From positions 185,106 through 249,105 of the forward strand of contig CBDCFT010000015.1 of the NCBI GenBank assembly GCA_965216365.1: DNA of 64,000 nucleotides. Direction: 5' to 3'. Numbering within the stretch: position 1 is the first letter of the stretch; every line of letters begins with the position of its first letter. Shown here in pieces: positions 17,088 to 52,866 of this stretch. This DNA is from Arenicellales bacterium (GTDB lineage: Bacteria; Pseudomonadota; Gammaproteobacteria; Arenicellales; CBDCFT01). The notes below the pieces were generated by a model. The model worked only from the letters and a program-made list of their open reading frames with translations, did no database searches and had not been told where the DNA came from. A program made the translations under genes and the position numbers.

Positions 17088-20000
17088 CTAATGAAAATCA
17101 CGTGAACGTACACGCAAAGTGCTAAGCCATGCACTGTAATCATCCAGTTTTCTGGCGACGACATGAATAACATTACTTTCAATTTGAACAGCGCCATTCA
17201 CAACCAGCAAGCGGGCATTGATCAGGTTACGCCGTTGCGCCTCAACAATTTTAGGCCAGACGACAATGTTGGCGTGTCCGGTTTCGTCTTCCAGCGTAAC
17301 AAAAATGACACCGGATGCCGTCATGGGTCGTTGGCGGTTGATGACCAGCCCGGCAACACTGGCCACGCAACCATTAGATAAATGCTCTAATTCACACGCC
17401 GGATGAATGCCTATGTCGTTCAGGCGTTTGCGATACAATGCGACGGGATGACGGCCCAGGGTCAGACCGATGCTGGCATAGTCGGCGATGATATTTTCTT
17501 CTTCCTGCGGTTTGTACAACATGGCTTCGCCCTCGTTGAACTGCGGTGAGGGCAAAATTTTTGTAGCGGACTCTGCGCCGGATACTTCCCAATATGCCTT
17601 ATGGCGATGATCGGCGATGTTAACCAATGCGTTGGCCGCGGCCAGTGCCTCTAAATCCGTTTTATTGAGTCGCGCCCTTTGGGCCAGATCCTGCACGTTA
17701 CGATAACGGCCATCATGTCGTTGATACACGATGTTTTCACCACTGGTCTGCGATAGACCCTTAATCATACGCAAGCCTAAACGCAGGGCAGGTTGTCTGG
17801 TGCGTGATGGTTCAAGGGTGCAGTGCCAATGACTGATTTGCACATCTACAGGTCGTATCTCGACACCATGCTGGCGTGCATCGTTGACTAATTGTGGAGG
17901 ACGATAAAATCCCATGGGCTGACTATTCAATAACGCGCAGGTAAACGCCGCAGGTTCATAATATTTTAACCACGACGAGATATACGCCAGCAAGGCAAAA
18001 CTGGCGGAATGGGACTCAGGGAAACCGTACTCACCAAAACCTTTGATTTGCCGGTAGATACGCTCAGCAAATTCCAATGGATAACCATTAGCTGTCATTC
18101 CATTGATTAATTTTTCCTCATAGGGTCCCAGATCGCCTCGACTCTGCCACGCTGCCATGCTGCGCCGCAACTGGTCGGCTTCACCGGGTGAAAATCCTGC
18201 CGCAACGATGGCAATTTGCATTACCTGTTCTTGAAAAATAGGCACACCCAATGTGCGTTGTAAAATCTGCTCGACCGCATCGCTGGGATAATCGACAGGC
18301 TCTATTTTGTCCCGGCGTCGCAGATAAGGGTGCACCATGTCACCTTGTATAGGCCCGGGACGAACAATCGCAATTTGAATAACAAGATCATAGTAATTTT
18401 TCGGTCTAAACCGCGGCAACATGGACATTTGCGCCCGCGACTCGATTTGAAAAACGCCAACGGTGTCCGCTTTTTGCATCATGGCATAAACCTTCGTGTC
18501 TTTTTTAGGAATACTTTCCATGCTCCAGCGTTTACCACTGTAACCTTCGATCAGATCAAAACACTTGCGGATCGCAGTCAACATACCGAGGCTCAGCACA
18601 TCGACCTTAAGCAGTCCTAAGGATTCGAGATCGTTCTTTTCCCATTGTATGACTGTGCGATCCGGCATGGCCGCGTTTTCGATGGGGGCTAACTCGGACA
18701 GGTTGCCTTGCGTAATGACGAAGCCACCTACATGTTGCGAAAGATGACGAGGAAAATGAAAGATTTCACCAACCAGGGTAAACAGTTTTCCAATTTTGGG
18801 GTTTTTGTGGTCAAAACCGTTTTCTTCTAATTGCGATATGAGTTGTTGTGTACTGTCCCACCATTGTATGGACTTCGACAAACGGTCAACCTGCTCCAGG
18901 CTAAATCCCAATGCTTTACCCACGTCACGAATCGCGCTGCGCAATTTATAAGTAACTACGGTGGCAGCTAGCGCTGTGCGTTCACGTCCGTAACGTCGGT
19001 AAATATATTGAATGACTTCTTCACGTCGTTCATGTTCAAAATCGACGTCGATGTCAGGTGGCTCGTCGCGTTCTCTGGAGATAAATCTCTCGAACAACAA
19101 TTCCACCATTGATGGATTAACCTCGGTAATGCCAAGGCAATAACACACTGCTGAATTTGCAGCCGATCCACGCCCCTGACATAAGATATTCTGGCTACGA
19201 GCAAATCGAACTACATCGTAAATGGTTAAGAAATAGGGTTCATATTTCAGCTCAGTAATGAGCTTGAGTTCATGTTCGATTTGTTTTTTAATCTTGTCGC
19301 TTGCACCATCCGGCCAGCGTCGTTGCATGCCTTGTTCAGTTAATCGCCGGAGCCATGATGCGGGAGTGTATCCGGACGGAACGATCTCCCTGGGATATTC
19401 ATAACGCAGTTCATCCAAATTGAAATTGCACAGCGATGCAATATACACACTTTGTTCCAGCAACTCAGGTGAATAGAGTTTTGACAACCGTTGCCGGGAC
19501 TTTAGATAACGTTCGCCGTTGGGAAACAGATCAAAACCGAGTTCATTGAGTGGTTTGTTAAGACGGATAGCGGTGAGCGTATCCTGCAACGCACGCCGCC
19601 CCGGATGATGCAGATGTACACTGCCACAGGCAACGCGGGGCAGGTTGCATGCCGTGCTTAATTTTTCGGTGTGTTCTAAATAATTTTTTTCATTGCCGAG
19701 CAACAAACGGGTTACTGCAATCCAAACATGTTGTGGAAACAGTCTGGCAAGCCATACGCCATCCTCAATTTGTGAACTCTCATTAACCAGCCAGAGTACA
19801 ATGCACCCTTCAGGGCACAGAGCCTCGAATTCCATACGGTTTAATTTATAAGTCCCTTTATCGGCATTACGCCGTGCATGGGTAATCAAACGCGACAGAC
19901 GGCCATAACTTCCCCGATCGGTGGTTAACACAACACAACGCAATCCGTCTGCTAACGTGAACTCGCTACCGACGATTAACTTGATGCCGCATGCTTTAGC

Positions 20001-20171
20001 CGCTACATGCGCCCGCACCACACCGGACAACGAACATTCATCGGTGATAGCGATGGCGCAATAACCGAACTCGTGCGCCTGTTTGACTAACTCTTCGGGA
20101 TGGGAGGCGCCGCGTAAAAAAGTAAAGTTGCTGATGACATGCAACTCGGCATAGTCAGGCAAACAGTCCAT
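17088..20171 (-). CDS. dnaE2: Error-prone DNA polymerase III alpha-like (DnaE2/ImuC)
   Basis: 1027 aa with a PHP domain at the N-terminus (HVISNFTFLRGAS...) and a Pol III alpha core. It is the last gene of the imuA-imuB-dnaE2 cassette. Confidence 0.9.
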   Translation of the reverse strand: MDCLPDYAELHVISNFTFLRGASHPEELVKQAHEFGYCAIAITDECSLSGVVRAHVAAKACGIKLIVGSEFTLADGLRCVVLTTDRGSYGRLSRLITHARRNADKGTYKLNRMEFEALCPEGCIVLWLVNESSQIEDGVWLARLFPQHVWIAVTRLLLGNEKNYLEHTEKLSTACNLPRVACGSVHLHHPGRRALQDTLTAIRLNKPLNELGFDLFPNGERYLKSRQRLSKLYSPELLEQSVYIASLCNFNLDELRYEYPREIVPSGYTPASWLRRLTEQGMQRRWPDGASDKIKKQIEHELKLITELKYEPYFLTIYDVVRFARSQNILCQGRGSAANSAVCYCLGITEVNPSMVELLFERFISRERDEPPDIDVDFEHERREEVIQYIYRRYGRERTALAATVVTYKLRSAIRDVGKALGFSLEQVDRLSKSIQWWDSTQQLISQLEENGFDHKNPKIGKLFTLVGEIFHFPRHLSQHVGGFVITQGNLSELAPIENAAMPDRTVIQWEKNDLESLGLLKVDVLSLGMLTAIRKCFDLIEGYSGKRWSMESIPKKDTKVYAMMQKADTVGVFQIESRAQMSMLPRFRPKNYYDLVIQIAIVRPGPIQGDMVHPYLRRRDKIEPVDYPSDAVEQILQRTLGVPIFQEQVMQIAIVAAGFSPGEADQLRRSMAAWQSRGDLGPYEEKLINGMTANGYPLEFAERIYRQIKGFGEYGFPESHSASFALLAYISSWLKYYEPAAFTCALLNSQPMGFYRPPQLVNDARQHGVEIRPVDVQISHWHCTLEPSRTRQPALRLGLRMIKGLSQTSGENIVYQRHDGRYRNVQDLAQRARLNKTDLEALAAANALVNIADHRHKAYWEVSGAESATKILPSPQFNEGEAMLYKPQEEENIIADYASIGLTLGRHPVALYRKRLNDIGIHPACELEHLSNGCVASVAGLVINRQRPMTASGVIFVTLEDETGHANIVVWPKIVEAQRRNLINARLLVVNGAVQIESNVIHVVARKLDDYSAWLSTLRVRSRDFH

Positions 20172-21672
20172 GTAAATACCACTCCCGGCCCTGTTTCAGA
20201 TCTCGGTAAACCCACCAGCGTACCCCCTTTTTTGATATAGCAACGTAGTAATCGCGCCCGATATCATCATCGTCCCACCAGCCGTTTTCGATACGCTCGG
20301 ACTGGGTTATAAATTTCGTTCCATTCAACACAACAGGCAGTGCCTGCGGCAGTAGATAAACGGGTCTGCGCAGATTTTTTATCCATGCCAGCGTGTCGCT
20401 ATTATCATGGATTTTACCAATGCAACAACGCTGCCAGGCATGTTCAGGCCGGTGGTCGGCCGCCGTTTGCATGCAATACACTTTGTCATCGCCAACACGA
20501 GCTTTGATCAGATCCGTCAGTTGTTGCCAGTCCTGTTCGTCACTCGCGCGTTTGTCGAACAAGTCGGCATGGGATGCGGCATAAGGCAATACCTGATCGA
20601 TATGCAGCGATACACGTTCGACCTCATCCGGTAAGGTTAAATGTTCAAGTCGTTCGTTAATAAGCGTTAAAAACCGTTGTGATTGCCGCGAGGCTTTTTG
20701 TAACCGAATGGGTAAGGGCGTGTGAGTCTTGTGGTCATGCCAGAACTTGATGAGCAGGGCATCGGTCATGGCATCGTGCCGGCGCAAAAAGTTTTCTGCC
20801 TTACCCAGCAACTTCTCAAGCGCGATCATTAATAAGTCAACGCTGTCACTGTGCACCGGCAGTTCCAGTTCGGCGTTAAAACGCACACTGGGCATAAAGA
20901 CACGGCGTAAATCGGGTTGCATGGCGCTGGCATGATCCAAAAATGTCAACAGGGACACGCCAAAACGTCGCGTCAAACCCGCACGCGGTAAACGCCATAA
21001 ATCACGCAAAGTGTATAACCCGCATTTCGATAAACTCTCGACCAGCTTGGTCGAAAGCCCGGTATCGACCAGTGCTATTTCGCCTAATGCAGATTTCAAA
21101 CCGGCTTTATCGGTTATATTTTTTTCCATGCCGTTATGCGCCAACAGCCATGCTGACGTGGGTGTGGGAGTCACTGCTAGAAAAAAGGTTTGTTTATGTT
21201 TTGTAAACATGTCGCGTACATGACTCCGCAGTTTTTTCATGCCGCCGAATAATTTAAGACTGCCGGATACTTCCATTAACAACGCATCGGATTCCTGCAG
21301 AGCGATATGGGGTGTAAAACGAGCTGCTTGCCGGGCCAGTTGTTCCAGTTTTTTACGTTCAAACGCGACATCGCGCATACACACCTTGAGATGGCGGCAC
21401 AATGCATAAGCAGCATTCAATGGCATGCCCGGCGTGATGCCCCGGGACTGCGCAATGCCGCAGGCAGCATAAATCACATGGCGATTTTTTTGTTGCTCGA
21501 TAATCGCGCAAGGCATGTCTTGCTCACGCGCCGGGGTTTGCAAAGCCAGTTCAGGAAAACAGATGCACAACCAGAGGTGTTGGCTGGTGGATAAATTTTC
21601 AGCGACCGGTTCGGCGAAAGACTCAAACGCTGCCGGCGTAATTTTTGGTGCGATGTTTAAGCTGGCATTCAT
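20155..21672 (-). CDS. imuB: Y-family polymerase-like ImuB
   Basis: 505 aa sitting between imuA and dnaE2, overlapping the dnaE2 start. It has UmuC/DinB-like N-terminal similarity. Confidence 0.75.
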   Translation of the reverse strand: MNASLNIAPKITPAAFESFAEPVAENLSTSQHLWLCICFPELALQTPAREQDMPCAIIEQQKNRHVIYAACGIAQSRGITPGMPLNAAYALCRHLKVCMRDVAFERKKLEQLARQAARFTPHIALQESDALLMEVSGSLKLFGGMKKLRSHVRDMFTKHKQTFFLAVTPTPTSAWLLAHNGMEKNITDKAGLKSALGEIALVDTGLSTKLVESLSKCGLYTLRDLWRLPRAGLTRRFGVSLLTFLDHASAMQPDLRRVFMPSVRFNAELELPVHSDSVDLLMIALEKLLGKAENFLRRHDAMTDALLIKFWHDHKTHTPLPIRLQKASRQSQRFLTLINERLEHLTLPDEVERVSLHIDQVLPYAASHADLFDKRASDEQDWQQLTDLIKARVGDDKVYCMQTAADHRPEHAWQRCCIGKIHDNSDTLAWIKNLRRPVYLLPQALPVVLNGTKFITQSERIENGWWDDDDIGRDYYVAISKKGVRWWVYRDLKQGREWYLHGLFA

Positions 21673-21676
21673 TGCA

Positions 21677-22294
21677 TTAAATATCCAATATCACCGACTG
21701 TTGTTGCCAACTGCCACGTGCTTTAATTATTTTTATGTTTAAACCTCGCTGGTGGGCGCGAAGATGCAAACGCAAAGGTGCGGGCGAACCAGTACAATGT
21801 TGACGATGAAACAACACGCCGATGCTGTCACCGGCGCTGGCCGCGAGTTGCAAACGGCGTATGCCGCGCGGATCGGCTTGTGGCAGCCACACCAGCACCA
21901 TGGCGCTGGTCTGGGCGCGCAGGGTTTTGTCCGCGCTCCACCAGATGTCCCGTGCACTCGCCGCCGCATCGATAATGAGTAAACGATTCAGTCGAACACC
22001 GGCATTGATCAGGGCCGGTGCATAGGGCACATAAGGCGGTGCGATGATGCTCAACCATTTATCCTGTTGACTGAGGCGGGCCATGAGCGGCAACCACAGT
22101 TGTAACTCGCCGATGCCCCAGTCATGCAGCATGTTTTCGACGACAGTGCTATTCGGCCAGCCACCACCCGGCAGCAAGGCGTCCAGTGCCGCAAAACCAC
22201 TGCTGATATTCTCGCTGCACTGTTCAAGACGCGCCGCACCCTGCCATAGCAGCGGATTACTGCTGATCAAGTCATCCAGCGATGGATTCATCAT
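21677..22294 (-). CDS. imuA: SOS cell-division-inhibitor-like ImuA
   Basis: 205 aa RecA/SulA-like fold protein (ALDALLPGGGWP...). It is the first gene of the cassette and sits directly downstream of a LexA box. Confidence 0.7.
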   Translation of the reverse strand: MMNPSLDDLISSNPLLWQGAARLEQCSENISSGFAALDALLPGGGWPNSTVVENMLHDWGIGELQLWLPLMARLSQQDKWLSIIAPPYVPYAPALINAGVRLNRLLIIDAAASARDIWWSADKTLRAQTSAMVLVWLPQADPRGIRRLQLAASAGDSIGVLFHRQHCTGSPAPLRLHLRAHQRGLNIKIIKARGSWQQQSVILDI

Positions 22295-28181: not shown

Positions 28182-29957
28182 ATGGAAAAACTCACGGACT
28201 TTAAACCAATCCATAAACTTACACTTCCCGACTTAGGGGAACTAACTTGTTCCGGTCTTACCATCATAGTTGGCCCAAATTCGCCAGGTAAGAGCCAACT
28301 ACTTAAAGACATCAACGAAAAAATAGCTGGCGACCCGCGAGAGTTAGTTGTCGCTGAATCAATTGAGTTGACAAATATCGATTACACAACTTTCTTAAAG
28401 TGCTTAATAACCGAGGGATATTTATCTTCTTTCTGGGACGATAATGATCAAGAGCAGTATATGCCGATGACTACTGCTATAGGTACCGGTCAAGGCGCTC
28501 AACAGGTGGGAACTCAACAACTTGAACAATGGAAAAGTCAGTCTCCAACAGCACATAAACGCAAAAAGAAAGATCAATACTTTGGATGGTTCAGCCGTTT
28601 CCTTGTAACCGCACTATTCTTAGAAAATCGACTCACAAGTATGTCTACCGCAAACACAATAGACTTTGAAACACAGCCTCCTACACACGATTTACATGCC
28701 TTGCACTTACACGACGAGGCTAGAAACGCCCTCACGGAAGAAATACAGCGAGCATTTTCAAAAGCTATTTGGTCCGACATATCTAAAGGTAATCAAATCT
28801 GTCTACGGATCGCTGAAACAGGAAAAGTTCCAAGTGCCGAAGACCGCCTTTCCGTTAAAGAAATGGCGAAGTACAGAACGTTAGCTTCCGAAGGCGATGG
28901 AATGAAATCTTATGTGGCTACCGTCATTTCGCTTCTACTCGGAAGACGCCCGATAAGTGTAATGGACGAACCGGAAATGTGTTTGCATCCACCGCAGGCT
29001 TACAACCTCGGACAATTTATAGGAAAGTCTGCGACTAGCAAGCAAACAAGAACTTTCGTCGCCACGCACAGTAGCCAAATTTTACGCGGCGTCTTACAAA
29101 CGGCTGAAGAGCTTCAAATAGTTCGATTAACAAGAAATCCAACTGGTTTTTCCGCAAAACATGTAGATTCAAAACTGTTAAATGAAGCGTTAAGAAAACC
29201 GACAGTACGAGCTGAAACTGTGCTTGATGGTATATTTGCTCAAGCTGTAGCAGTAGTTGAGGCGGATGGTGATCGGATCGTATATCAGGCAACGTGGGAA
29301 GTCGTTGGACAATCGCGTAATTTCGATATTCATTTTGCGACTACGGGTGGGACAGGCGGGATTTCCGATACATGCAAATTGTACAAAATGTTGGGCATTC
29401 CCGTAGCAGTGATCGCGGATTTAGATCTGATAACTGACTTAGGAAAAATCAAGGTGATCTTGCAGAGCTTAATCGATGACGCTGAAATAGTTGATGAGCT
29501 TGTGAGTACAGGTCATGAATTAGCCGATAAATTACAAAAACTTCCCCCAACTATTTCGGAAGCAGACCTCCACGATAGACTCAAGGAACTAGTACAGGAG
29601 AACTTTATTTGGGTTCAAGGAGATGATCATAAACTCAGACGTGAACTTTCGGGTCTAAGTAACAAACTAAACGGAATGCGGGGATTAAAAGGTGGCGGAC
29701 TTTCCGTACTTCCACTAGATGTTTCAAAACCATTGCTAGAATTGCTAGAGAAATTTCAACGTATCGGGCTATTCTTAGTACCCGTTGGAGAACTTGAATA
29801 TTGGCTACAGGATCATAGTATATCCGCCTCAAAAAAGAAAAAATGGGCCTGGGCTAATGAAGCAGCAGAATTTATAAGAATGAATCAACGACAACAGAAT
29901 GATATCTGGAAATTCATGGAAGATGTGGGAGCCTATTTAACAGGGCAATTCGTTTGA
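28182..29957 (+). CDS. OLD-family ATP-dependent endonuclease-like protein (ABC-type ATPase + TOPRIM)
   Basis: 591 aa. Walker A GPNSPGKSQLL, signature-like GMKS, Walker B ISVMDEPE and H-loop ATHSS. The C-terminal TOPRIM-like region has VAVVEADGDRIVY (E, DxD) and VAVIADLDLITD. The gene is low-GC relative to its flanks. Confidence 0.7.
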   Translation: MEKLTDFKPIHKLTLPDLGELTCSGLTIIVGPNSPGKSQLLKDINEKIAGDPRELVVAESIELTNIDYTTFLKCLITEGYLSSFWDDNDQEQYMPMTTAIGTGQGAQQVGTQQLEQWKSQSPTAHKRKKKDQYFGWFSRFLVTALFLENRLTSMSTANTIDFETQPPTHDLHALHLHDEARNALTEEIQRAFSKAIWSDISKGNQICLRIAETGKVPSAEDRLSVKEMAKYRTLASEGDGMKSYVATVISLLLGRRPISVMDEPEMCLHPPQAYNLGQFIGKSATSKQTRTFVATHSSQILRGVLQTAEELQIVRLTRNPTGFSAKHVDSKLLNEALRKPTVRAETVLDGIFAQAVAVVEADGDRIVYQATWEVVGQSRNFDIHFATTGGTGGISDTCKLYKMLGIPVAVIADLDLITDLGKIKVILQSLIDDAEIVDELVSTGHELADKLQKLPPTISEADLHDRLKELVQENFIWVQGDDHKLRRELSGLSNKLNGMRGLKGGGLSVLPLDVSKPLLELLEKFQRIGLFLVPVGELEYWLQDHSISASKKKKWAWANEAAEFIRMNQRQQNDIWKFMEDVGAYLTGQFV

Positions 29958-30221
29958 TATTTAAATGAAGCGCAATCAGATTAATTCATTATCTTGGTTT
30001 GCCTCTCGTGAATTTTGCTTGCCGATAGATGCCTACTTTTGTATACACACCTGACTCTGTAAAAAGCTACACAAAACGTCAGCTTTTGGCCGCACTGAGC
30101 GCGTCGTAGTCAAAATATGTTTCATTGATAGGTGGATGAATAGGAGAAACACAAACAATCTATGGGCGTGGATGCACTTCCCGAATAGTGAAATCTGACG
30201 TCGGTCGGTATTGCCAATGCT

Positions 30222-30416
30222 TCAGTTATCTTTGGAATAATTATCGGTGACTGATTTCTGTTCGGGTTCGATTACGTTTCTTTCAGAGAAATAGTCGTCA
30301 ATCTCATCTTGTAGTGATTGATTGGCGTTGAATCGTTGTCCGGAACGCGAACGCACGTGAGCACCGCCCTTGCGCATGATGGGCGCCCAGGTGTAGGGGT
30401 TTCTTGGTGCAGGCAT
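30222..30416 (-). CDS. Possible small (64 aa) ORF co-oriented 10 nt downstream of the 313-aa gene
   Basis: MPAPRNPYTW...; a GGAA motif lies 10 nt upstream. No similarity to anything I recognise. Confidence 0.25.
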   Translation of the reverse strand: MPAPRNPYTWAPIMRKGGAHVRSRSGQRFNANQSLQDEIDDYFSERNVIEPEQKSVTDNYSKDN

Positions 30417-30426
30417 TTTCTATTTC

Positions 30427-31368
30427 CTAAAGTGCTAACCGATACCAGTTATGTTGCTTTAATTCACGTTTGCGTTTACGCCCGGCCAGCAAAAATTCTG
30501 GTGGTCGCGAAGTAAGCTGAAAACAGAACTTCTTTGGTAATTGGCTATAAATGGATTTCGGTGGTTTAGCATTGTCGATGCGTTTCAGCGCCGCACCGGA
30601 TTCGTTCGTGTGGTAGTAAATGTTACGAATTCCTATTTCGTCACGAATAAATCGAATCGCAGCGGTAAGCATAGCTTCTGGCCACATCGTTCGATAAGGT
30701 TGCAACACCTGTTCAATATAGGTTTTGATATCTTCTATGTTTCCGTCAATTTTCTTGCGTTGCCAGTACTTTTCCGGTTTGCGGGCGTTTAATAATGGCT
30801 TTAAGTACCAGTCGGCATAACGTAGCCAATCCGATTGAATTTCTTCAATTAGCGCTTCGTCCATGTCAAACTCCAGGTCAATTCGCGCCCAGGCCAGAGT
30901 GTCGCGGTAAAAACCACTACGTTTACGCGTGGCAACCGGATGATACCTATTGTTTAGAAATCCATCGCTCTTGGGTTTGACCAATTGATAGTACTGCTCC
31001 TGATGTTTATTGCTGAAATTGAGTTGCAACACCAGATTGACTCCTTTTCTGGATAACTGATCGTAACGCCAATACTTAGGTCCACCCCATATCGATAGTC
31101 CCAGAAAAAACGATTCACTAGGTTCCTGCCAGTGGTTCAGCAGATCTTCACGCTTTATCTTGCTGCCACCGTAACGCGCGAACGCTTGCTTGACTGTTGG
31201 TTTTTCCAGCAGTTGTGCGAAATCGGTTTTCTTCAGGTCGCTCACACGACTCCCATCGCCCACAGCTTGCGCTAACAACGAAAATGCATAACCATCTTTG
31301 AAATAAAGGAATGGTGTTTTGCCTTTCGGCAGGCAATATCTGATTGCTTTTGCCGTTCGTAGTTTCAT
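30427..31368 (-). CDS. Hypothetical lysine-rich 313-aa protein with no recognisable domain
   Basis: Long low-GC ORF with coding-like composition, convergent with the OLD-like gene. Confidence 0.5.
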   Translation of the reverse strand: MKLRTAKAIRYCLPKGKTPFLYFKDGYAFSLLAQAVGDGSRVSDLKKTDFAQLLEKPTVKQAFARYGGSKIKREDLLNHWQEPSESFFLGLSIWGGPKYWRYDQLSRKGVNLVLQLNFSNKHQEQYYQLVKPKSDGFLNNRYHPVATRKRSGFYRDTLAWARIDLEFDMDEALIEEIQSDWLRYADWYLKPLLNARKPEKYWQRKKIDGNIEDIKTYIEQVLQPYRTMWPEAMLTAAIRFIRDEIGIRNIYYHTNESGAALKRIDNAKPPKSIYSQLPKKFCFQLTSRPPEFLLAGRKRKRELKQHNWYRLAL

Positions 31369-33040: not shown

Positions 33041-33113
33041 AGTTGAGAGCAGGACTCGAACCTGCTACACACCGATTAAACGTCGGTTGCTCTACCCAAT
33101 GAGCTATCTCAGT
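33041..33113 (-). tRNA. tRNA-Lys(UUU)-like sequence, probably a pseudo-tRNA
   Basis: The minus strand reads ACTGAGA-TA-GCTC-ATTGGGTA-GAGC-A-ACCGA-CGTTTAA-TCGGT-GTGTA-GCAGG-TTCGAGT-CCTGC-TCTCAAC-T. The D, anticodon (UUU) and T arms are canonical. Position 33 is G instead of U, the outer two acceptor pairs are mismatched, and there is no CCA. Confidence 0.45.
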
Positions 33114-35333: not shown

Positions 35334-35399
35334 GGGACAGTTTGTCAACAACAAAAATCAGCCGGTTCACCGGCACATAGCGGACTGTGGTCTACCAGA

Positions 35400-36233
35400 T
35401 CAAGTCCGTTTCCTACAAATAACTTCGATTGGGGCAATATAATCTCTTGAGATATTATCAATCATATTCCCAATTTTTTTCGTAGTGGCTTCCTGCATCA
35501 AAGTGTGAAGGCCAAGAGGCGGTGGGCCTCCGCTCGCTTTTGTTTTTGCCTGCAGTCGCTTAAAGAAGTCGAGTGCGAAGTCACGACGATTGTTTACTTT
35601 GAGGACTTCAAAGCCTGCATCCTTTAGGGCTTCCATGTATTGTTCAGGTGTCGATAATTTACTGATACTACTGTCTGTTGCCCATGGAACCGGGTAAGTC
35701 AACTCACCTTCCTTGTTGCGCATGACGTCATAAACACCAAATGAAGCTTCTGGCCGTAGCGCTCGATGTATCTCAGAAAACAGTTCAGCTTTGTTTTCAA
35801 TATTCATCCCCACATGCATCATGTAAGCACCATCGAAAGTTTCATCCTGAAAAGGCAGCGACAGCGCACTGCCTTGTTGAAGCGTAACTCTCTCCTCCAA
35901 TCCCACCCAGGCACACAATGCATTTCCCGTTTCGATATACTCGTGCGTTAAATCAATGCCGGTAACCCGATTGTTGTACTTGTCAGCGACAAAGCGTGAA
36001 GCGCCTCCCAATCCACAACCCACATCAAGCACATGTTCTTTTGTAGAAAAGTCGAGTTGTGCGAGAAAACTTTCAGTCGCTTGTCGCCCGCCAATGTGGA
36101 ACTCATCGACGGCAGCAAGGTCTTCAATAGTTACGCTATCAACCGTCTTGCCCAACTGAGCAATTGCAGCTTGAATCGCTTGAAGTAAACTTCCATGGGC
36201 GTAATGTTCTGAAATATCGCTCTCATTTGGCAT
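35400..36233 (-). CDS. Class I SAM-dependent methyltransferase
   Basis: VLDVGCGLGG motif I. The likely start is ATG at 36233 with a GGGAG SD; the ORF track's TTG start at 36257 is an upstream extension. Confidence 0.8.
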   Translation of the reverse strand: MPNESDISEHYAHGSLLQAIQAAIAQLGKTVDSVTIEDLAAVDEFHIGGRQATESFLAQLDFSTKEHVLDVGCGLGGASRFVADKYNNRVTGIDLTHEYIETGNALCAWVGLEERVTLQQGSALSLPFQDETFDGAYMMHVGMNIENKAELFSEIHRALRPEASFGVYDVMRNKEGELTYPVPWATDSSISKLSTPEQYMEALKDAGFEVLKVNNRRDFALDFFKRLQAKTKASGGPPPLGLHTLMQEATTKKIGNMIDNISRDYIAPIEVICRKRT

Positions 36234-36385
36234 GACTTGAACTCCCAATAGGATCAATCAGGGATTGTTCTTGCTCAACTCGACAACGTTTGCTCGATGG
36301 AAAACCACGGAAGATTGTGCTGTCTATGCTCTACGCCATTACGATTACATTTTTTGAATACGATGGCTAGAAAAATCCTACAAAC

Positions 36386-36874
36386 TTAGACCTCTCGATT
36401 TGTCTCTATGTCCCAGCCGCGACTGACAGGAGGTGTTGGGGTACCCGCCTGGTCTATTGGTCTATACTCAACTGTTACCTTTCGATAACGAAATGTGACT
36501 GCTTCGGACGGTCGCTCCTGTGAAGAGTCCGTGCCGTCATCATTAACGGAGCTGACCATACAGTCATTGAGCACATACTTAACGAAGGTGTGTCTTTCCC
36601 CGCCGGTGCGGACGCCTTCGAGTTCAACAGTCGGAATTCGCTTACCGTTGGCACAGTGAATCATCAAATCAGGAGTTGCTCTATCGACGCTTTTTAATAT
36701 TCCCAGGTCAATAAAGTTTACTTTTCCAGAAGTTCGATCTCTCGGAGCGCTTGAGTCTAGGGCTGGAGTTTCAACACCCCAGCTGTAACTGTGTACATCG
36801 ATCCACTTGTTGTGATCAGCGTCCGTGCTTTCACCTTCAATGCCGTCTATACGAAGAAAATAGTCTACCGCCAC
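36386..36874 (-). CDS. hcp: Type VI secretion system tube protein Hcp (orphan)
   Basis: 162 aa with MAVDYFLRIDGIEGESTD...SYSWGV...VEYRP, hallmark Hcp1-family motifs, and an AAGGAGG SD. No other T6SS genes are in the window. Confidence 0.85.
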   Translation of the reverse strand: MAVDYFLRIDGIEGESTDADHNKWIDVHSYSWGVETPALDSSAPRDRTSGKVNFIDLGILKSVDRATPDLMIHCANGKRIPTVELEGVRTGGERHTFVKYVLNDCMVSSVNDDGTDSSQERPSEAVTFRYRKVTVEYRPIDQAGTPTPPVSRGWDIETNREV

Positions 36875-37304
36875 GTTTTGCCTCCTTGTTTATAAACGAT
36901 CCACAACGATACGGCATTGATAACACATTACAGTAACTTGTCGCCTCACCCGAATGGGTGATATTTAGACTACTAATGCGAACTATGGGTGTCGAAAATC
37001 ACAGCTTGATTCGTTGTTCATGTATCCACACGTTAAGATAATACTTATCTACGACCAACAAGAGACTATGGAGGTAGATTGAAATTACGTTCGTTTGTTT
37101 GGCTATAGCGGTCGAAGCTGTTTGAATATTCCATGAAGCAACAAATACAGCAATTGCTGGATAATCTCATATAGAGTGGGAAATTAATCAACAAATCAGT
37201 AGCGACCACGTAATTCGACGCGACAATACCCCCCTTTCCTCGACCGAATCGAATCCTGTCTAACGAATGCCCTGTTTGTTATTTTCTTTCAGTCGTGTCT
37301 ATTG

Positions 37305-38924: not shown

Positions 38925-39739
38925 TCAATCCGATCCTTCAGACGTGATCACGAGCCACTTCGGTCGCTCTAGAGTCAGCAGAAAGACTCCGGCCAAGACA
39001 AACGTGCCACCCGTTATGCGGTTAAATATCTGCAGGCTGCCAATAGATTTCGTATAGCTGGCGACCTTTGTTGCGAAACCTGCAAGAAGCATTTCCAGCA
39101 CAACCTCTACGGCCACGAATGTTCCCGCCAAAACTATAAACTGCGACCAAAATGTAGCTTCGATGACGTAGAACTGCGGCAAGAACGTGGTAAAGAAAAT
39201 CAGTACCTTTGGATTCATTGCGACGATCATGAATCCCTGAACAAAAAGATTTAGATTAGAGCGACCTTTGATCTCGTCGCGGTGACTCTTCTCGTCTATG
39301 CGGTCGAAGACAGAGCAGCACGGGTTTACCCGTGGGTGAATGAGCTACGTTGTTGCTCATCGTGGCCCGTAGTTGAAGTGATGAGCAGCAACGGCAGCCC
39401 GAAGGGCTGTGACAGTAAGCACCCCGGCTTTAGCCGGGGGAATCTATGGTCGATGCTTTCGACCGAAAGAGGGAAATGCCCAGGTAAATCAAGTACCCAG
39501 CCGTTAGCCACTTAATCATCATAAATGCGACTACGGAAGCGGATAAGACTAGCCCCAGTCCCGACAACGAGAGTCCGATAAGCACAGTCAGACCGCTGGC
39601 GCATCCCAATGTTAGGGAATAACGTTTTTCTTACACCGTACCGTAGACCGTTTGTCATCGACAAGAGGCTGTTCGGTCCTGGCGTTAGGCATCGCAAAAC
39701 CACCGCCGATGCATATATGCCCCAAAATTTCGCGCTCAT
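38925..39739 (-). pseudogene. LysE/RhtB-family amino-acid exporter gene, disrupted by frameshifts and a ~170-nt hairpin-rich insertion
   Basis: The N-terminus MSAKFWGIYASAVVLRCLTPGPNSLLSMTNGLRYG (39739 downward) and the C-terminus ...NPKVLIFFTTFLPQF... (down to 38925) match RhtB. The middle (39231–39520) shifts frame twice and is about 170 nt longer than expected. Confidence 0.6.
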
Positions 39740-48619: not shown

Positions 48620-49964
48620 GAGACCCTGACCCTGTAAATAATTCTGTGTAACCGCCCATAGATGGGTTTACAGGTGTTGAGTGATTCGATCACCAAACTC
48701 AATACTAAATCGGTTTAACGCAAGCTTCCAGTTCTGAATCGGCATGGTCCATTTCTTGGATGCTTGGTTGATTGCCAGATAGACAACTTTCAAAGCAGAA
48801 TCATCTGTCGGGAACAGCTTTCGTTTCTTCGTCGCTTTACGAATCACACTGTTCAATGACTCGATTGCATTCGTCGTGTAGATCGCTTTGCGGATCTGTG
48901 GGGGATAATCGAAGATCGTGATCAGGTTCAGCCAGTGATCGCGCCAGGACTTGCTGATCTGCGGATATTTGTCATCCCAAGTATCTGCAAAGTTCTCCAG
49001 CGCCGCACTGGCTTCAGCTTCTGAAGCCGACTGATAAATCTTCTTGAGATCAGCCGTTACCCCTTTGTAATCTTTCCAAGGCACTAGCTTCAGGGAATTC
49101 CGAATCATGTGGACGATACACAGTTGCACCTTGGTGTTCGGATATTCCGCCGCTATCGCATCGGGAAAGCCTTTCAGGCCATCCACGCTGGCAATCAGGA
49201 TGTCCTCCAATCCTCGTGTCTTCAGCTCGGTCAGAACAGACAGCCAGAACTTGGCGCCCTCCGTTTCCGCTAGCCACATACCCAGTAATTCCTTATGCCC
49301 TTGCAAATTGATACCGAGAGCCAGATACAGAGACTTGTTGATCACCTGCTTGTCCTGGCGGATTTTCAGTACGATACAGTCCAGGTAAACCACAGGATAA
49401 ATGGCATCCAGAGGCCGGTGCTGCCACTCGACGACCTGATCCAGAACACGATCCGTGACCTTAGAGATCAGCGTTGGCGAGACATCGGCGTCATACAATT
49501 CCTTGAAGCTATCGACGATTTCACGGGGGGTCAAACCCTTAGCGTAAAGAAACAGAATCTGCTCATCCATCTGAGTGAGGCGGGTTTGACCTTTCTTGAT
49601 AAATTCGGGTTCAAACGTCCCGTTACGATCTCTGGGTGTGTCGATCTCGACTTCACCGTGATCGCCCTTGAGGAGCTTAGGGGTGACGCCATTGCGGCTA
49701 TTCCCGCTGCCACGGCCCTTGAGATCGTGTTTAGCGTAACCAAGGTGTTCTTCCATCTCAGCGCCTAGGGCCGTCTCTACAGTGAGTTTGAGAAGCTGTG
49801 AGCTCAGAGCGCTCAGGTCTTTCTCGGATTTGATGTCTTTGGCTAATTCAGCAGCCAGCTCCTTGAGTCTTTTCTCGTCCAAAACAATACTCATGATGTT
49901 TGTCTCCAGTGTAAGATAAGTTAATCATGAGCGGTTACACAATTTAATTTACAGGGTCGAGACC
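48620..49964 (-). mobile_element. IS256-family insertion sequence (~1345 bp) with imperfect terminal inverted repeats
   Basis: IRL gagaccctgaccctgtaaataattctgtgtaaccgc (48620–48655) pairs with the reverse complement of IRR gcggttacacaatttaatttacagggtcgagaccc (49930–49964). It encloses one transposase ORF. Confidence 0.8.
48668..49894 (-). CDS. IS256-family (mutator-type) transposase
   Basis: 408 aa with ...DAIYPVVYLDCIVLKIR... and ...ASVDGLKGFPDAI...CIVHMIRNS..., the IS256 DDE signature regions. Confidence 0.9.
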   Translation of the reverse strand: MSIVLDEKRLKELAAELAKDIKSEKDLSALSSQLLKLTVETALGAEMEEHLGYAKHDLKGRGSGNSRNGVTPKLLKGDHGEVEIDTPRDRNGTFEPEFIKKGQTRLTQMDEQILFLYAKGLTPREIVDSFKELYDADVSPTLISKVTDRVLDQVVEWQHRPLDAIYPVVYLDCIVLKIRQDKQVINKSLYLALGINLQGHKELLGMWLAETEGAKFWLSVLTELKTRGLEDILIASVDGLKGFPDAIAAEYPNTKVQLCIVHMIRNSLKLVPWKDYKGVTADLKKIYQSASEAEASAALENFADTWDDKYPQISKSWRDHWLNLITIFDYPPQIRKAIYTTNAIESLNSVIRKATKKRKLFPTDDSALKVVYLAINQASKKWTMPIQNWKLALNRFSIEFGDRITQHL

Positions 49965-50151: not shown

Positions 50152-51765
50152 CTAACATGAATCAAAGTCCTCCCCGACAAGACACTTCGGATCGTTCCGC
50201 CCCTCTTCCTCGCAAATCTTTTCCAAATACTGATCGATACCACACAGACCATTATCGATCTCAGCATTCAATAGAAAACTCTTTAACATCTCTTCCATGT
50301 GATGAAAGACCTCATCGCTGAACAACTCATGTGCGTCGAGCATCTCGCCCTCGGGCGGCTGATGTTCGATGAACCGAATCTGGGAATTGGGCATCAGACC
50401 TAGCACCAGTTTCATATTGGGAAGCGGTTCGAATGGAGCCGTTTGCGTAATCGGGATGGGAAAATGCCAACCATGGTTACTGCCCTCACAACCGCCAATT
50501 GGTCCTGAGAATTCAATACCCGCTTGTAAAAAGTTTTGGTTGCCAAAGTCAGGATTGAGATGAATGTCTGCCACATCAGGTACGTGATTGAACGGGGGTG
50601 TATCGATGATTTGCTCGCCCACCTGCCAGCTAATGCTGCCGAGGTTTTTGATGTTCATCCCGCAAAAAGTGTCGGGAAATACAAGATCCTGGCCGTCGTT
50701 CTTCCTTGGCAGGAAGTCCGGTAATGCGCCGGTTGGTTTCGTAGGGATGGTCATAAGTGGTACCTCGTGACCATTCTCGGTTTCGATCATGATCCCGAAA
50801 TCGATGACGACATGAGGATTGCTACTGAGCTGAATCCAAGGTGGTAAGTCGGGAAGCCCGGCATCGGTGGCCCCGGGAGCGGAAGGACCTTGAGGATCGT
50901 CGTCACCATCGTCAGGTGCCGCGGCCACCACAAACATTTCCATATCGCGTGTACGAAACCCATTCTGCGCTTGTGCCGATCCAAAGGTCAAAAAGTTATT
51001 GAGGTTGCGCGGCCTCGACAGTCTGCTCTCACCATCGCCTGATGAGAACACACCGACAAAACGCTGATTTCCGGGTCGCCCAATGCGTTCCACGTCGACT
51101 AACTCCAGTCCATCGGCTACCATTTGGTCTCTGAGTTCGCGAAAGGCAACCGGTCTCCGCGGAGTCGTGAATAGATTACTGCCGGTACCGTCACGCCATA
51201 GCCCGGTATAAACCAACTGACCATTGATGCGTTCCACCTCCACATCGATCAAGCGCAATCCTTGTTGGGTTAGCGAGGTGCCGCGCGAGAGAAACGCATC
51301 CTCCTCTAGTGGGCGAGTAACTAGATCGCGTCCCGTGCCGGATCGCCAAAGCCCGACATATCGCCGACCACCATTAGCTCTGCGAAAGATTTCAATATCG
51401 ATTAGCCGTAATCCTTGTGCTGTGCGTGCTTCGCGCTCCTCGCGCAGTTCGATGGGACTCATTGGGCCTACGATAATGTTGCCACCGCTTCCAGCTACCC
51501 AAACTCCCGAATAGACACGACGATTATCGACAATAGCCGTTTCTACATCGATCAGACGTAGACCCTGGTCAACCAACTCAGTACCGCGATCAAGAAAATC
51601 GCTGAACGGTTCGGGCGCCGTGAAGATGTTAGTGCCAGATCCTGAATGCCAAACGGCCTGGAAGCGTAACTCGTCTGAGGACACAATCGTAGCGAATGAA
51701 AATGTAACTATGCATACGATTGCGGTGCTGGAAATCCGTAATATGCGAAATAGTTTGGTACTCAT
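50152..51765 (-). CDS. Secreted protein with five ~50-aa tandem repeats plus a ~280-aa C-terminal domain, function unknown
   Basis: A signal peptide, then repeats with the core LRLIDVE-x5-G-x2-RY-x-G-[VL]-W-R-x-G-[TS]-G. No recognised catalytic motif. Confidence 0.55.
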   Translation of the reverse strand: MSTKLFRILRISSTAIVCIVTFSFATIVSSDELRFQAVWHSGSGTNIFTAPEPFSDFLDRGTELVDQGLRLIDVETAIVDNRRVYSGVWVAGSGGNIIVGPMSPIELREEREARTAQGLRLIDIEIFRRANGGRRYVGLWRSGTGRDLVTRPLEEDAFLSRGTSLTQQGLRLIDVEVERINGQLVYTGLWRDGTGSNLFTTPRRPVAFRELRDQMVADGLELVDVERIGRPGNQRFVGVFSSGDGESRLSRPRNLNNFLTFGSAQAQNGFRTRDMEMFVVAAAPDDGDDDPQGPSAPGATDAGLPDLPPWIQLSSNPHVVIDFGIMIETENGHEVPLMTIPTKPTGALPDFLPRKNDGQDLVFPDTFCGMNIKNLGSISWQVGEQIIDTPPFNHVPDVADIHLNPDFGNQNFLQAGIEFSGPIGGCEGSNHGWHFPIPITQTAPFEPLPNMKLVLGLMPNSQIRFIEHQPPEGEMLDAHELFSDEVFHHMEEMLKSFLLNAEIDNGLCGIDQYLEKICEEEGRNDPKCLVGEDFDSC

Positions 51766-51945
51766 CTTATACCTCCTTGTCGTCGCAAGTCGCGACTAGA
51801 CGTCCTTATCTACCGATATTAAACAGTGTTCTCGATGGTATTTCGTCACTCAAATGGGTGAGATTTGAGTACAAATCTCGACAGTGAATGGATTACAAAA
51901 TGTAAAGTGTAGTCTGCTGCTTTGAATTTACCCAATGAAGCGTGA

Positions 51946-52866
51946 TCAGTTGGTAATACCCGACACGGCCGTGCTAAGTGCGCGTCGGGGCTTTATAACC
52001 GCAACATCAAAACGATGGCCTTGTCCAACACCATAACCCGTCAGATAGCGCACGTAGCGTCCTGAATCCGACATTTCATCACCCAAGTCAGCTACTTGCG
52101 GACCACCGATATTGGCCCAGGTTTTATTGGGTTTAGACACTTTGCGCCAGATGGCGGAAAAACGCGGTAACTGTCCCTGATCATGGGTGTAAGCATCCAT
52201 GAATACCAGTCGCCATCCATCGGATTTGCGCTGTGCATCCTGTTGGTCTAGCTGATCCCGCGTGAGAAATGATTTCAATGCGGTACCACCTGGTCGTTTC
52301 TCATAAAAAGCGGCATAGCGTCTTTGACCATTGATAGACACCACGGAGACATTAACAGGGTCCCATCCCTTTGCCGTCAAATCATCGAACTTCGCCTGGT
52401 GCTGCGCTGCATTCAGCCCATGATAAGCCGTCTGCGGTTTGCACCTCGCCTTCTTGAATACCGCGGCATACCGGGGTGAATTACCTTGCCGGTACACATC
52501 CAGCGATCGCAAGCATCTGCCCGCTTGAAACTGATTGTCGAAATACTTCTGATACGAACTTCCGGTCAGGCCGAACTTGGCTGTCCATGAACTGCTGGTG
52601 CGGGTTCGAAATACAAAGTTGAAATAGACTTTACCCCCTACGTCGTAGCCATCCAGTCGTGTCATTTCGTAACCATCGGCGGTGTGTAGATCAAACGCCT
52701 TTTGCATATCTGACGCCGGGATACCGAGACCGACAGCCTCGTAGGATTTGCCTTTTTGCGTCTCCCAGTACGTACCGAAGAAATTAAACGCGTGCGCGGC
52801 AGGTACTAAATACAGTCCAATGAGTAGTGTAATTGCCGTTGATTTCGCTCGTACTGATACAGTCAT
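51946..52866 (-). CDS. Secreted protein with five related ~50-aa repeats (paralogous repeat architecture to 50152–51765)
   Basis: A signal peptide, then repeats with the core [RW]-x-[LV]-x-[MV]-D-x-Y-x6-RY/F-[AS]-A-[VIF]-[WFY]-[RK]-K. Confidence 0.55.
   Translation of the reverse strand: MTVSVRAKSTAITLLIGLYLVPAAHAFNFFGTYWETQKGKSYEAVGLGIPASDMQKAFDLHTADGYEMTRLDGYDVGGKVYFNFVFRTRTSSSWTAKFGLTGSSYQKYFDNQFQAGRCLRSLDVYRQGNSPRYAAVFKKARCKPQTAYHGLNAAQHQAKFDDLTAKGWDPVNVSVVSINGQRRYAAFYEKRPGGTALKSFLTRDQLDQQDAQRKSDGWRLVFMDAYTHDQGQLPRFSAIWRKVSKPNKTWANIGGPQVADLGDEMSDSGRYVRYLTGYGVGQGHRFDVAVIKPRRALSTAVSGITN

What the first reader, a model, noticed from the sequence alone, without database searches (positions are those of the whole stretch)
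35400..36874. Orphan hcp co-oriented with a SAM-methyltransferase gene 128 bp downstream; no other T6SS components in 64 kb
The Hcp sequence is unambiguous. Solitary hcp genes are frequently followed by their cognate cargo effector. Here the next gene on the same strand is a class I methyltransferase, which is not a described Hcp-linked effector class. Either hcp is a stray auxiliary copy, or the methyltransferase is an unusual Hcp-associated cargo.
Basis: partly seen in the sequence, partly recalled or inferred. Interest (0 to 1): 0.5.

Follow-up and report, generated by a model that had tools for sequence, protein, structure and literature searches.

The report
Solitary hcp beside unrelated methyltransferase gene
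A genuine but isolated type VI secretion tube-protein gene (hcp) sits next to an ordinary, widely conserved small-molecule methyltransferase gene; the pairing is not conserved from either gene's side and is most likely incidental. Other solitary hcp genes in soil metagenomes, however, are tightly paired with different methyltransferases.

Summary
Window 36386-36874(-) encodes a real 162-aa Hcp: Pfam 128 bits, and a predicted fold with TM 0.91 to EvpC and Hcp1. A class I SAM methyltransferase (MT) follows on the same strand. Its true start is the ATG at 36233, so the gap is 152 bp, not 128. No other T6SS gene was found in the 64 kb.

The cargo idea is not supported for this locus.
- The MT belongs to a very large family of 276-aa enzymes that are about 70% identical. 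Its closest solved relatives are small-molecule methyltransferases.
- None of 80 genome loci, and none of six contigs carrying the closest orthologues, has hcp nearby.
- The closest Hcp (59% identity) is also solitary but has no MT downstream. The next relatives (47-51%) all lie inside canonical T6SS clusters.

The best reading is a stray tube gene of T6SS-cluster ancestry lying next to an unrelated metabolic gene.

One result keeps the cargo idea alive in weak form. In high-GC soil-metagenome contigs, 20 of 41 hcp loci without T6SS genes have an MT gene abutting the 3' end of hcp. These MTs come from three unrelated families, and some pairs have overlapping stop and start signals. Those Hcps lie outside the window's well-supported clade. 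That pattern is the more interesting lead.

The parts
36386..36874 (-). hcp (tssD), 162 aa, solitary T6SS tube-protein gene; GTG start, stop TAA at 36386-36388
   Evidence: Pfam PF05638 at 128 bits. TIGR03344 at 60.0 bits against a 58.9 cut-off. Full-length match to PDB 1y12. Model pLDDT 89.4, TM 0.91 to 3eaa and 1y12.
36881..36887 (-). Shine-Dalgarno AAGGAGG upstream of the hcp start codon
   Evidence: Read directly from the sequence. AAGGAG is also present upstream of the closest homologue in L001.
36234..36385 (-). 152-bp hcp-MT spacer with no predicted terminator, no sigma-70-like site on this strand and no unusual RNA structure
   Evidence: Promoter and terminator scan. RNA fold z = -0.69. 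No Rfam match.
35400..36233 (-). class I SAM-dependent methyltransferase, 277 aa, member of a very large conserved 276-aa family of small-molecule-type MTs
   Evidence: Pfam Methyltransf_25/11/31. 7706 homologues, the best at 70-83% identity and of the same length. Closest PDB relatives are PEAMT, MitM and RebM-type MTs at E~1e-16.
35361..35374 (-). intrinsic-terminator-like hairpin (GCCGG-TGAA-CCGGC plus a T run) 26 nt after the MT stop; it ends the transcription unit before the convergent GFA gene
   Evidence: Terminator scan.

Best explanation
The locus holds two functionally unrelated genes that happen to be neighbours.

hcp encodes a bona fide T6SS inner-tube subunit. Its ancestors sat between tssC and tssE in canonical TssA-B-C-Hcp-(TagJ)-TssE-F-G-ClpV clusters. 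In this lineage, and in its one known close relative, the gene has left the cluster and diverged on a long branch. If the genome carries a T6SS elsewhere, the protein would act as a spare or alternative tube subunit. If it does not, the gene is a surviving relic.

The methyltransferase is an ordinary member of a widespread, highly conserved family of cytoplasmic small-molecule SAM methyltransferases. It has its own ribosome-binding site and a terminator after it. It may be read through from hcp or use its own promoter in the 152-bp spacer. It is neither cargo nor a partner of Hcp.

Shown: the identity of both genes, the absence of T6SS genes in the window, the non-conservation of the pair from both sides, and the phylogenetic origin of hcp. 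Inferred: that the MT acts on a small molecule, and that hcp serves a T6SS encoded elsewhere.
For: - MT side: none of 80 genome loci with MT homologues (29-71% identity, up to 10-kb flanks) contains an Hcp.
- MT side: the closest orthologues with context (75-76% identity) have TPR, CMD or cytochrome-D1 genes upstream, not hcp.
- MT side: the window MT has the family's standard length, with no added targeting domain.
- MT side: the nearest solved relatives are phosphoethanolamine N-MT, MitM, RebM and sarcosine/dimethylglycine MT.
- MT side: a distant subgroup is embedded between PreT and PreA of pyrimidine catabolism.
- Hcp side: the closest homologue, P0002 (59% identity), is followed after about 530 bp by a signal-peptide protein. 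It has an AhpC gene upstream and no MT.
- Hcp side: the next relatives, P0134, P0138 and P0137 (Sedimenticola), at 47-51% identity, all lie in full T6SS clusters.
- Hcp side: the window-P0002 pair is supported 199/200 and sits in a clade with those Hcps at 195-199/200.
- Layout: the 152-bp spacer contrasts with the 0-22 nt spacing seen in hcp-MT pairs that really are coupled.
- Layout: there is no immunity-like ORF, only a terminator and then a convergent GFA gene.
- Composition: hcp GC is 0.49, equal to the window mean, so recent import is not indicated.
Against: - Three other methyltransferase families are found abutting solitary hcp genes in 20 of 41 non-T6SS hcp loci. A methyltransferase next to a solitary hcp here is therefore a less innocent coincidence than the roughly 2% base rate suggests.
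- No terminator separates hcp from the MT, so co-transcription is possible.
- Only one close Hcp relative with context exists, giving n=1 for the Hcp-side test.
- The rest of the genome could not be examined.
Confidence: 0.77

Rival explanations
1. The methyltransferase is a functional partner of this Hcp: exported cargo, a client of the Hcp ring, or an enzyme that methylates Hcp. On this reading the window is an independent recruitment of the kind seen in other solitary hcp loci. The two genes would be co-transcribed as a bicistronic unit ending at the terminator after the MT.
For: - Solitary hcp genes are recurrently coupled to PKMT-like, DUF7059-MTS-DUF7782 and TPR-Methyltransf_11 genes.
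- In the 20-kb views of those loci only 1 of 58 other annotated genes is an MT.
- In the window the two genes share a strand, have no terminator between them, and are followed by a terminator after the MT.
Against: - The pair is not conserved from either side: 0 of 86 MT loci have hcp, and the nearest Hcp relative has no MT.
- The MT is a standard-length member of a small-molecule MT family. The coupled MTs elsewhere are large multidomain enzymes of protein- or RNA-MT type.
- The spacer is 152 bp, against 0-22 nt in the coupled pairs.
- The window Hcp lies outside the MT-linked Hcp groups with bootstrap 195-199/200.
- A 31-kDa Rossmann-fold enzyme is larger than typical lumen-carried Hcp cargo (inference from published Hcp1 work, PMC8262886).
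- No immunity gene is present.
Confidence: 0.13
2. hcp is a non-functional relic. The T6SS has been lost from this genome, and the gene persists only by chance or has taken on an unrelated, non-secretory role. The MT is irrelevant.
For: - No T6SS gene was found in 64 kb.
- The window and P0002 Hcps have changed 21-22 of 69 positions that are at least 93% invariant in the sister clade. They are only 46-50% identical to a clade whose members average 70%.
- The Gly-rich loop is replaced by SSAPRDRTSGK.
Against: - The ORF is intact, with a strong Shine-Dalgarno sequence, and is full length in both lineages despite 41% divergence between them. That argues for purifying selection.
- The predicted fold is confident and canonical.
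- Solitary hcp genes that serve distant clusters are common in the literature.
Confidence: 0.1

Closest known systems
Orphan or auxiliary hcp genes of T6SS-bearing proteobacteria (for example Salmonella, Pantoea, Proteus and Pseudomonas 'orphan hcp' loci)
   Same: A stand-alone hcp outside the core cluster, with standard length and the Hcp1/EvpC fold, descended from cluster-encoded Hcps.
   Different: Typical auxiliary modules carry vgrG, PAAR, an adaptor or an effector-immunity pair beside hcp. Here there is none within 64 kb. The protein is unusually divergent, at no more than 51% identity to any cluster-encoded relative.
Hcp-dependent cargo effectors (P. aeruginosa Tse1-4 type; Hcp-ET fusions)
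   Same: The gene lies immediately 3' of hcp on the same strand, which is the position where such effectors are often encoded.
   Different: There is no immunity gene, no toxin domain and no fusion to Hcp. The protein is 31 kDa. The family is ubiquitous in genomes without adjacent hcp. No methyltransferase effector class for Hcp was found in the literature searched.
Small-molecule class I SAM methyltransferases (phosphoethanolamine N-MT, MitM, RebM, sarcosine/dimethylglycine N-MT, CMAS-like)
   Same: Sequence matches at E 1e-16 to 1e-10 over the Rossmann core and the substrate cap, with the same size of about 270-300 aa. The motif I GxGxG is present.
   Different: The protein is below every NCBIfam equivalog cut-off; the best, DVU_1556 family, scores 86 against 155. 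The substrate is therefore unknown.
Solitary hcp + PKMT-like / MTS-type / TPR methyltransferase pairs (seen here only in metagenome contigs; no description found in the literature searched)
   Same: A solitary hcp with a SAM methyltransferase as its 3' neighbour and no T6SS genes nearby.
   Different: Those pairs are spaced 0-22 nt apart or overlap (CTGA). Their MTs are 450-540-aa multidomain enzymes (PF10119+PF21782, DUF7059+MTS+DUF7782, or TPR+MT). The pairs are conserved across lineages at 52-75% MT identity. They come from 66-73% GC contigs, and their Hcps fall outside the window's clade.

Membership tests
Hcp / TssD (T6SS inner tube protein) | Sequence membership: PF05638 and TIGR03344 above their curated cut-offs | tested here: met
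   PF05638 scores 128.4 bits against 23.5. TIGR03344 scores 60.0 against 58.9, which is marginal.
Hcp / TssD (T6SS inner tube protein) | Hcp beta-barrel fold of about 160 aa | tested here: met
   The model has pLDDT 89.4. Foldseek gives TM 0.91 and rmsd 1.9-2.0 A to EvpC (3eaa) and Hcp1 (1y12).
Hcp / TssD (T6SS inner tube protein) | Encoded within or beside T6SS core genes (tssB/C, tssE-G, vgrG ...) | tested here: not met
   tblastn with 14 T6SS protein families hits only hcp. 30 ORFs scanned by Pfam show no T6SS family. The rest of the genome was not available.
Hcp / TssD (T6SS inner tube protein) | Forms hexameric rings, stacks into a tube and is secreted in a T6SS-dependent way | not testable with these tools
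   Only monomer prediction is offered, and no experiment is possible.
Hcp-dependent T6SS cargo effector (claim for the methyltransferase) | Genetic linkage to hcp conserved across genomes | tested here: not met
   None of 80 genome loci and none of 6 contigs of the closest orthologues has hcp. The closest Hcp homologue lacks the MT.
Hcp-dependent T6SS cargo effector (claim for the methyltransferase) | Cognate immunity gene adjacent (for antibacterial effectors) | tested here: not met
   The MT stop is followed after 26 nt by a terminator and then the convergent GFA gene, with no small ORF between them.
Hcp-dependent T6SS cargo effector (claim for the methyltransferase) | Binds the Hcp lumen and is exported | not testable with these tools
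   This needs a multimer model or a pull-down and secretion assay. The size, 277 aa or about 31 kDa, is above that of most lumen cargo (inference).
Class I SAM-dependent methyltransferase | Rossmann-type MT domain with the GxGxG SAM-binding motif I | tested here: met
   Methyltransf_25, Methyltransf_11 and Methyltransf_31 match at E 1e-18 to 1e-14, and the motif VLDVGCGLGG is present.
Solitary hcp-methyltransferase coupled pair (pattern seen in metagenome loci) | Tight coupling (0-22 nt or overlapping stop/start) and conservation of the pair across diverged lineages | tested here: not met
   The window spacer is 152 bp. The pair is unique to the window, and the window Hcp lies outside the MT-linked groups.

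The most novel reading that the evidence does not exclude
The window pair is a further, independent instance of a so-far undescribed partnership between solitary Hcp proteins and SAM methyltransferases. In this partnership an Hcp ring, detached from any T6SS cluster, would work with a methyltransferase as its carrier or chaperone, its scaffold, or its methylation substrate. At least three unrelated MT families show this coupling in uncultured high-GC soil bacteria. The window would extend it to a small 277-aa MT in a roughly 49% GC genome whose closest Hcp and MT relatives are gammaproteobacterial.
Probability: 0.12. Interest if true: 0.7.

Novelty: new member of a known kind. Interest (0 to 1): 0.3.

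Why it matters
For the window itself the result is mostly housekeeping. A solitary, divergent hcp should not be read as evidence of a nearby T6SS, and its neighbour should not be annotated as an effector.

The wider value is the by-product. In the sampled metagenome loci, half of the hcp genes without T6SS neighbours are coupled, often translationally, to protein-type or RNA-type methyltransferases of three unrelated architectures. No paper in the searched library describes this. If the pattern is real, it points to a role for Hcp rings outside the classical tube function, or to a new class of Hcp clients. It also gives concrete gene pairs to test.

Tried and rejected
- Looking up the source contig by exact protein (P0001, P0013) returned nothing on record. 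The organism and the rest of its genome therefore stay unknown, and the genome-contig scan did not contain the source either.
- A relation between the window MT and the PKMT-like MTs was tested by BLASTP. Only the generic motif I matches, at E=0.03, so a common MT family was rejected.
- A sigma-54 promoter upstream of hcp was sought, as for some hcp genes. There is no match near 36875-37300, and matches across the window are not above chance.
- Conserved upstream DNA between the window and the closest hcp locus was sought. Only the Shine-Dalgarno region aligns.
- An RNA element or terminator in the spacer was sought, and none was found.
- A genomic island at tRNA-Lys was considered. The tRNA 3' end faces away from hcp, towards the low-GC OLD-nuclease block, and hcp GC equals the window mean, so this was rejected for hcp.
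- Taxonomic names for the MT-linked Hcps were sought through cluster look-ups. All are unnamed metagenome proteins.
- Hcp-MT fusion proteins were sought among the 150 best representatives. None was seen; the long hits are six-fold tandem Hcps instead.
- The first Biopython bootstrap timed out and was replaced by a numpy neighbour-joining bootstrap.

Full report
**1. What is in the window**

The minus strand carries two co-oriented ORFs.

The first is hcp at 36386-36874, 162 aa. It has a GTG start seven bases after an AAGGAGG Shine-Dalgarno sequence. The evidence that it is a real Hcp is as follows:
- It matches Pfam T6SS_HCP at 128.4 bits and passes TIGR03344 narrowly, 60.0 bits against a 58.9 cut-off.
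- It aligns end to end with P. aeruginosa Hcp1 (PDB 1y12) at E=7e-26.
- An AlphaFold model built on 32 homologues has pLDDT 89.4. It superposes on EvpC and Hcp1 at TM 0.91.

The second ORF is a class I SAM methyltransferase (MT). The database protein and the whole family (276-277 aa) begin at the ATG at 36233 (MPNESD), which follows GGGAG. The real spacer is therefore 152 bp.

The spacer has no terminator-like hairpin, no sigma-70-like site on that strand, no Rfam match and no unusual fold (z = -0.69). A terminator-like hairpin follows the MT at 35374-35361. After it comes a convergent GFA-family gene and then a GbcA-like Rieske oxygenase.

**2. No other T6SS genes**

I collected T6SS proteins from the clusters of the closest cluster-encoded relatives: TssA, B, C, E, F, G, J, K, L, M, FHA, TagJ/ImpE, ClpV and VgrG. 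tblastn against the window hits only hcp.

Pfam scans of 30 window ORFs, including all of the largest, found no T6SS family. They gave:
- DnaE2 and ImuB
- a BCCT transporter
- rhodanese
- an OLD-family nuclease
- a cyclase-TPR protein
- branched-chain amino-acid ABC transporter genes
- an ectoine-synthase-like protein
- an IS256-type transposase
- BTRD1-repeat proteins
- a second MT fused to MerC

hcp GC (0.49) equals the window mean. The only RNA gene is tRNA-Lys at 33041-33113(-). Its 3' end faces away from hcp.

**3. The methyltransferase side**

The MT has thousands of homologues. The best 120 are 67-83% identical and nearly all 275-278 aa, so the window protein is a standard member with no extra domain.

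Its nearest solved relatives are small-molecule enzymes, at E about 1e-16 to 1e-10:
- phosphoethanolamine N-methyltransferases
- MitM
- a RebM-type methyltransferase
- a sarcosine/dimethylglycine methyltransferase

It is below every NCBIfam equivalog cut-off.

A scan of one genome per species returned 80 loci with flanks of up to 10 kb, from Gammaproteobacteria, Alphaproteobacteria, Chloroflexota, Planctomycetota and others. None contains an Hcp. Close homologues share no conserved neighbours.

A distant subgroup (14 loci, 42-45% identity, Ruegeria and relatives) has the MT wedged between PreT-like and PreA-like genes. Hydantoinase-type and M20 genes lie nearby, so this is the reductive pyrimidine catabolism cluster.

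The closest orthologues with context (75-76% identity) have a TPR protein, a CMD protein or a cytochrome-D1-type propeller upstream. None has hcp.

**4. The Hcp side**

The closest relative, P0002 (59% identity), lies on two short contigs. It has an AhpC-type gene upstream on the other strand. About 530 bp downstream is a signal-peptide protein. There is no MT and no MT remnant.

A profile of the two sequences found about 45 further Hcps at 43-51% identity. The three looked up (P0134, P0138, and P0137 from Sedimenticola) all lie between tssC and tagJ/tssE in complete T6SS clusters.

In a neighbour-joining bootstrap the window-P0002 pair has 199/200 support. It sits in a clade with those Hcps at 195-199/200. 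The pair is on a long branch:
- It is 46-50% identical to a clade whose members average 70%.
- 21-22 of 69 clade-invariant positions have changed.

Both genes are nevertheless intact and full length.

The window hcp is therefore a solitary descendant of cluster-encoded tube genes. Solitary ('orphan') hcp genes are a well-documented category.

**5.

The first homologues looked up at 38-40% identity (P0007, P0006) turned out to be solitary hcp genes. Each is followed within 20-60 nt by a 459-485-aa methyltransferase with PF10119 and the PKMT winged-helix domain.

I then scanned metagenome contigs with an Hcp alignment, which gave 80 loci. I clustered the neighbours and annotated them.

Of 85 loci, 44 carry T6SS genes in the order TssA-B-C-Hcp-TagJ-TssE-F-G-ClpV. 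The other 41 show none, though many are short.

Twenty of those 41 have a methyltransferase abutting the 3' end of hcp:
- 11 are PKMT-like, from about seven lineages.
- 8 are DUF7059-MTS-DUF7782 enzymes of 480-540 aa. Three are co-directional with hcp and five convergent.
- 1 is a TPR-Methyltransf_11 protein. This pairing was seen again on an 81-kb contig.

Eight further loci have a GluQRS-like gene instead.

The 20-kb views L083/L084, L087 and L182 contain no T6SS gene. Only 1 of 58 other annotated genes in those views is a methyltransferase.

In all six junctions that end in TGA, the sequence is CTGA. There the MT is in the -1 frame and has no canonical start before its conserved N-terminal motif. 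TAG-stop loci have an ATG nine bases later. That layout suggests translational coupling.

MTS-domain methyltransferases also occur 3-5 kb upstream of hcp in four T6SS loci.

Treating each MT family as one event among up to 14 solitary contexts gives a rough chance probability of about 0.004-0.02. This is my estimate, not a formal test. I found no description of this pattern in the literature searched.

**6. Does that rescue the cargo idea for the window?**

Only weakly, for four reasons:
- The MT-linked Hcps fall outside the window's strongly supported clade.
- Their MTs are large multidomain enzymes, unrelated to the window MT beyond motif I.
- Their spacing is 0-22 nt, against 152 bp in the window.
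- Their pairs are conserved across diverged lineages, whereas the window pair is unique from both sides.

I put the incidental-neighbour reading at about 0.77, a functional Hcp-MT link at about 0.13, and a non-functional relic hcp at about 0.10.

**7. Limits**

The source genome could not be retrieved, so whether a T6SS exists elsewhere is unknown. Only one close Hcp relative has context. Taxonomy of the MT-linked loci is unknown, because all are unnamed metagenome proteins. Their 66-73% GC and gene content (WS/DGAT, VKOR+DsbA, HisKA_3) only suggest Actinomycetota-like or similar soil bacteria, which is an inference. No multimer modelling or experiment was possible.

**8. Verdict**

This is a real but ordinary solitary hcp next to an unrelated, widely conserved methyltransferase. 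It is a new, divergent member of a known kind. The more interesting lead is the recurrent coupling of other solitary hcp genes to methyltransferases.

Noticed in passing
L083-L087, L113, L125, L129, L131, L135, L154 (PKMT-like); L108, L112, L117, L119, L140, L145, L160, L167 (DUF7059-MTS-DUF7782); L165, L182 (TPR-MT): Solitary hcp genes in 66-73% GC metagenome contigs are recurrently abutted at their 3' end by SAM methyltransferases of three unrelated architectures. This holds for 20 of 41 hcp loci without T6SS genes. The 20-kb views show no T6SS genes, and only 1 of 58 other annotated genes there is an MT.
   Followed up: partly
L083:10480-10510, L113, L125, L131, L154, L167 junctions; L087:10478-10545; L129, L135: At hcp-MT junctions that end in TGA, the sequence is always CTGA. 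The MT is in the -1 frame and has no ATG/GTG/TTG before its conserved 'YDxVPYPG' N-terminus, which suggests coupling from a CTG start. In L087 the hcp stop codon is in frame with the MT ORF. TAG-stop loci have an ATG 9 nt after the stop.
   Followed up: partly
L096, L099, L115, L122, L124, L127, L146, L161: A separate, well-supported clade of solitary hcp genes (bootstrap 199/200) is followed directly by a roughly 345-aa GluQRS-like (tRNA-synt_1c) gene, often with a LysR regulator nearby.
   Followed up: partly
L098:900-1410, L105:700-1760, L107, L166:2400-3300: MTS/PrmA-like methyltransferase genes lie 3-5 kb upstream of hcp inside otherwise canonical T6SS clusters. A methyltransferase link may therefore not be restricted to solitary hcp genes.
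   Followed up: partly
Proteins P0247-P0262 and others (e.g. P0248 1157 aa, P0261 970 aa, P0247 2164 aa): The best-scoring representatives for the window Hcp are single polypeptides with exactly six tandem Hcp domains (six PF05638 stretches). They are in effect covalent Hcp hexamers, and some carry extra Ig-like domains.
   Followed up: partly
L164:2147-3001: An Hcp with a roughly 125-aa C-terminal extension that carries repeated DSDGDGITDD / DDDGCPD motifs (thrombospondin-type-3-like calcium-binding repeats). This is an Hcp with an extension domain of unusual type.
   Followed up: no
window 28182-31368 and tRNA-Lys 33041-33113(-): A low-GC block (0.41-0.45) holds an OLD-family nuclease (AAA_21 + TOPRIM) and a 313-aa ORF with no Pfam match. 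It lies on the 3' side of the only tRNA gene, so it is probably a small defence island.
   Followed up: no
window 38925-39739 (-): Three overlapping short ORFs look like pieces of one LysE/RhtB-type exporter gene (one piece has weak similarity to a locus ORF). This is probably a frameshifted pseudogene in a gene-poor stretch at 38.2-40.3 kb.
   Followed up: no
window 56603-57874 (+): A second class I methyltransferase (UbiE/ArsM-like) is fused to a C-terminal MerC-type membrane domain. The window thus has two MT genes among its genes, which is relevant to the base rate.
   Followed up: no
window 17088-22294 (-): A DnaE2 (1027 aa) - ImuB-like (505 aa) - 205-aa ORF cassette, the damage-inducible mutagenesis module.
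   Followed up: no
L047, L048, L051-L058, L060, L063, L067, L068: Distant paralogues of the window MT (42-45% identity) are inserted between PreT-like and PreA-like dihydropyrimidine dehydrogenase genes, with amidohydrolase and M20 genes downstream. This hints that the family acts on pyrimidine-catabolism intermediates in those bacteria.
   Followed up: partly
window 48668-49894 (-) and 50152-52866 (-): An IS256-family (Transposase_mut) gene lies next to two genes with BTRD1 (polyglycine-hydrolase-like) repeats.
   Followed up: no
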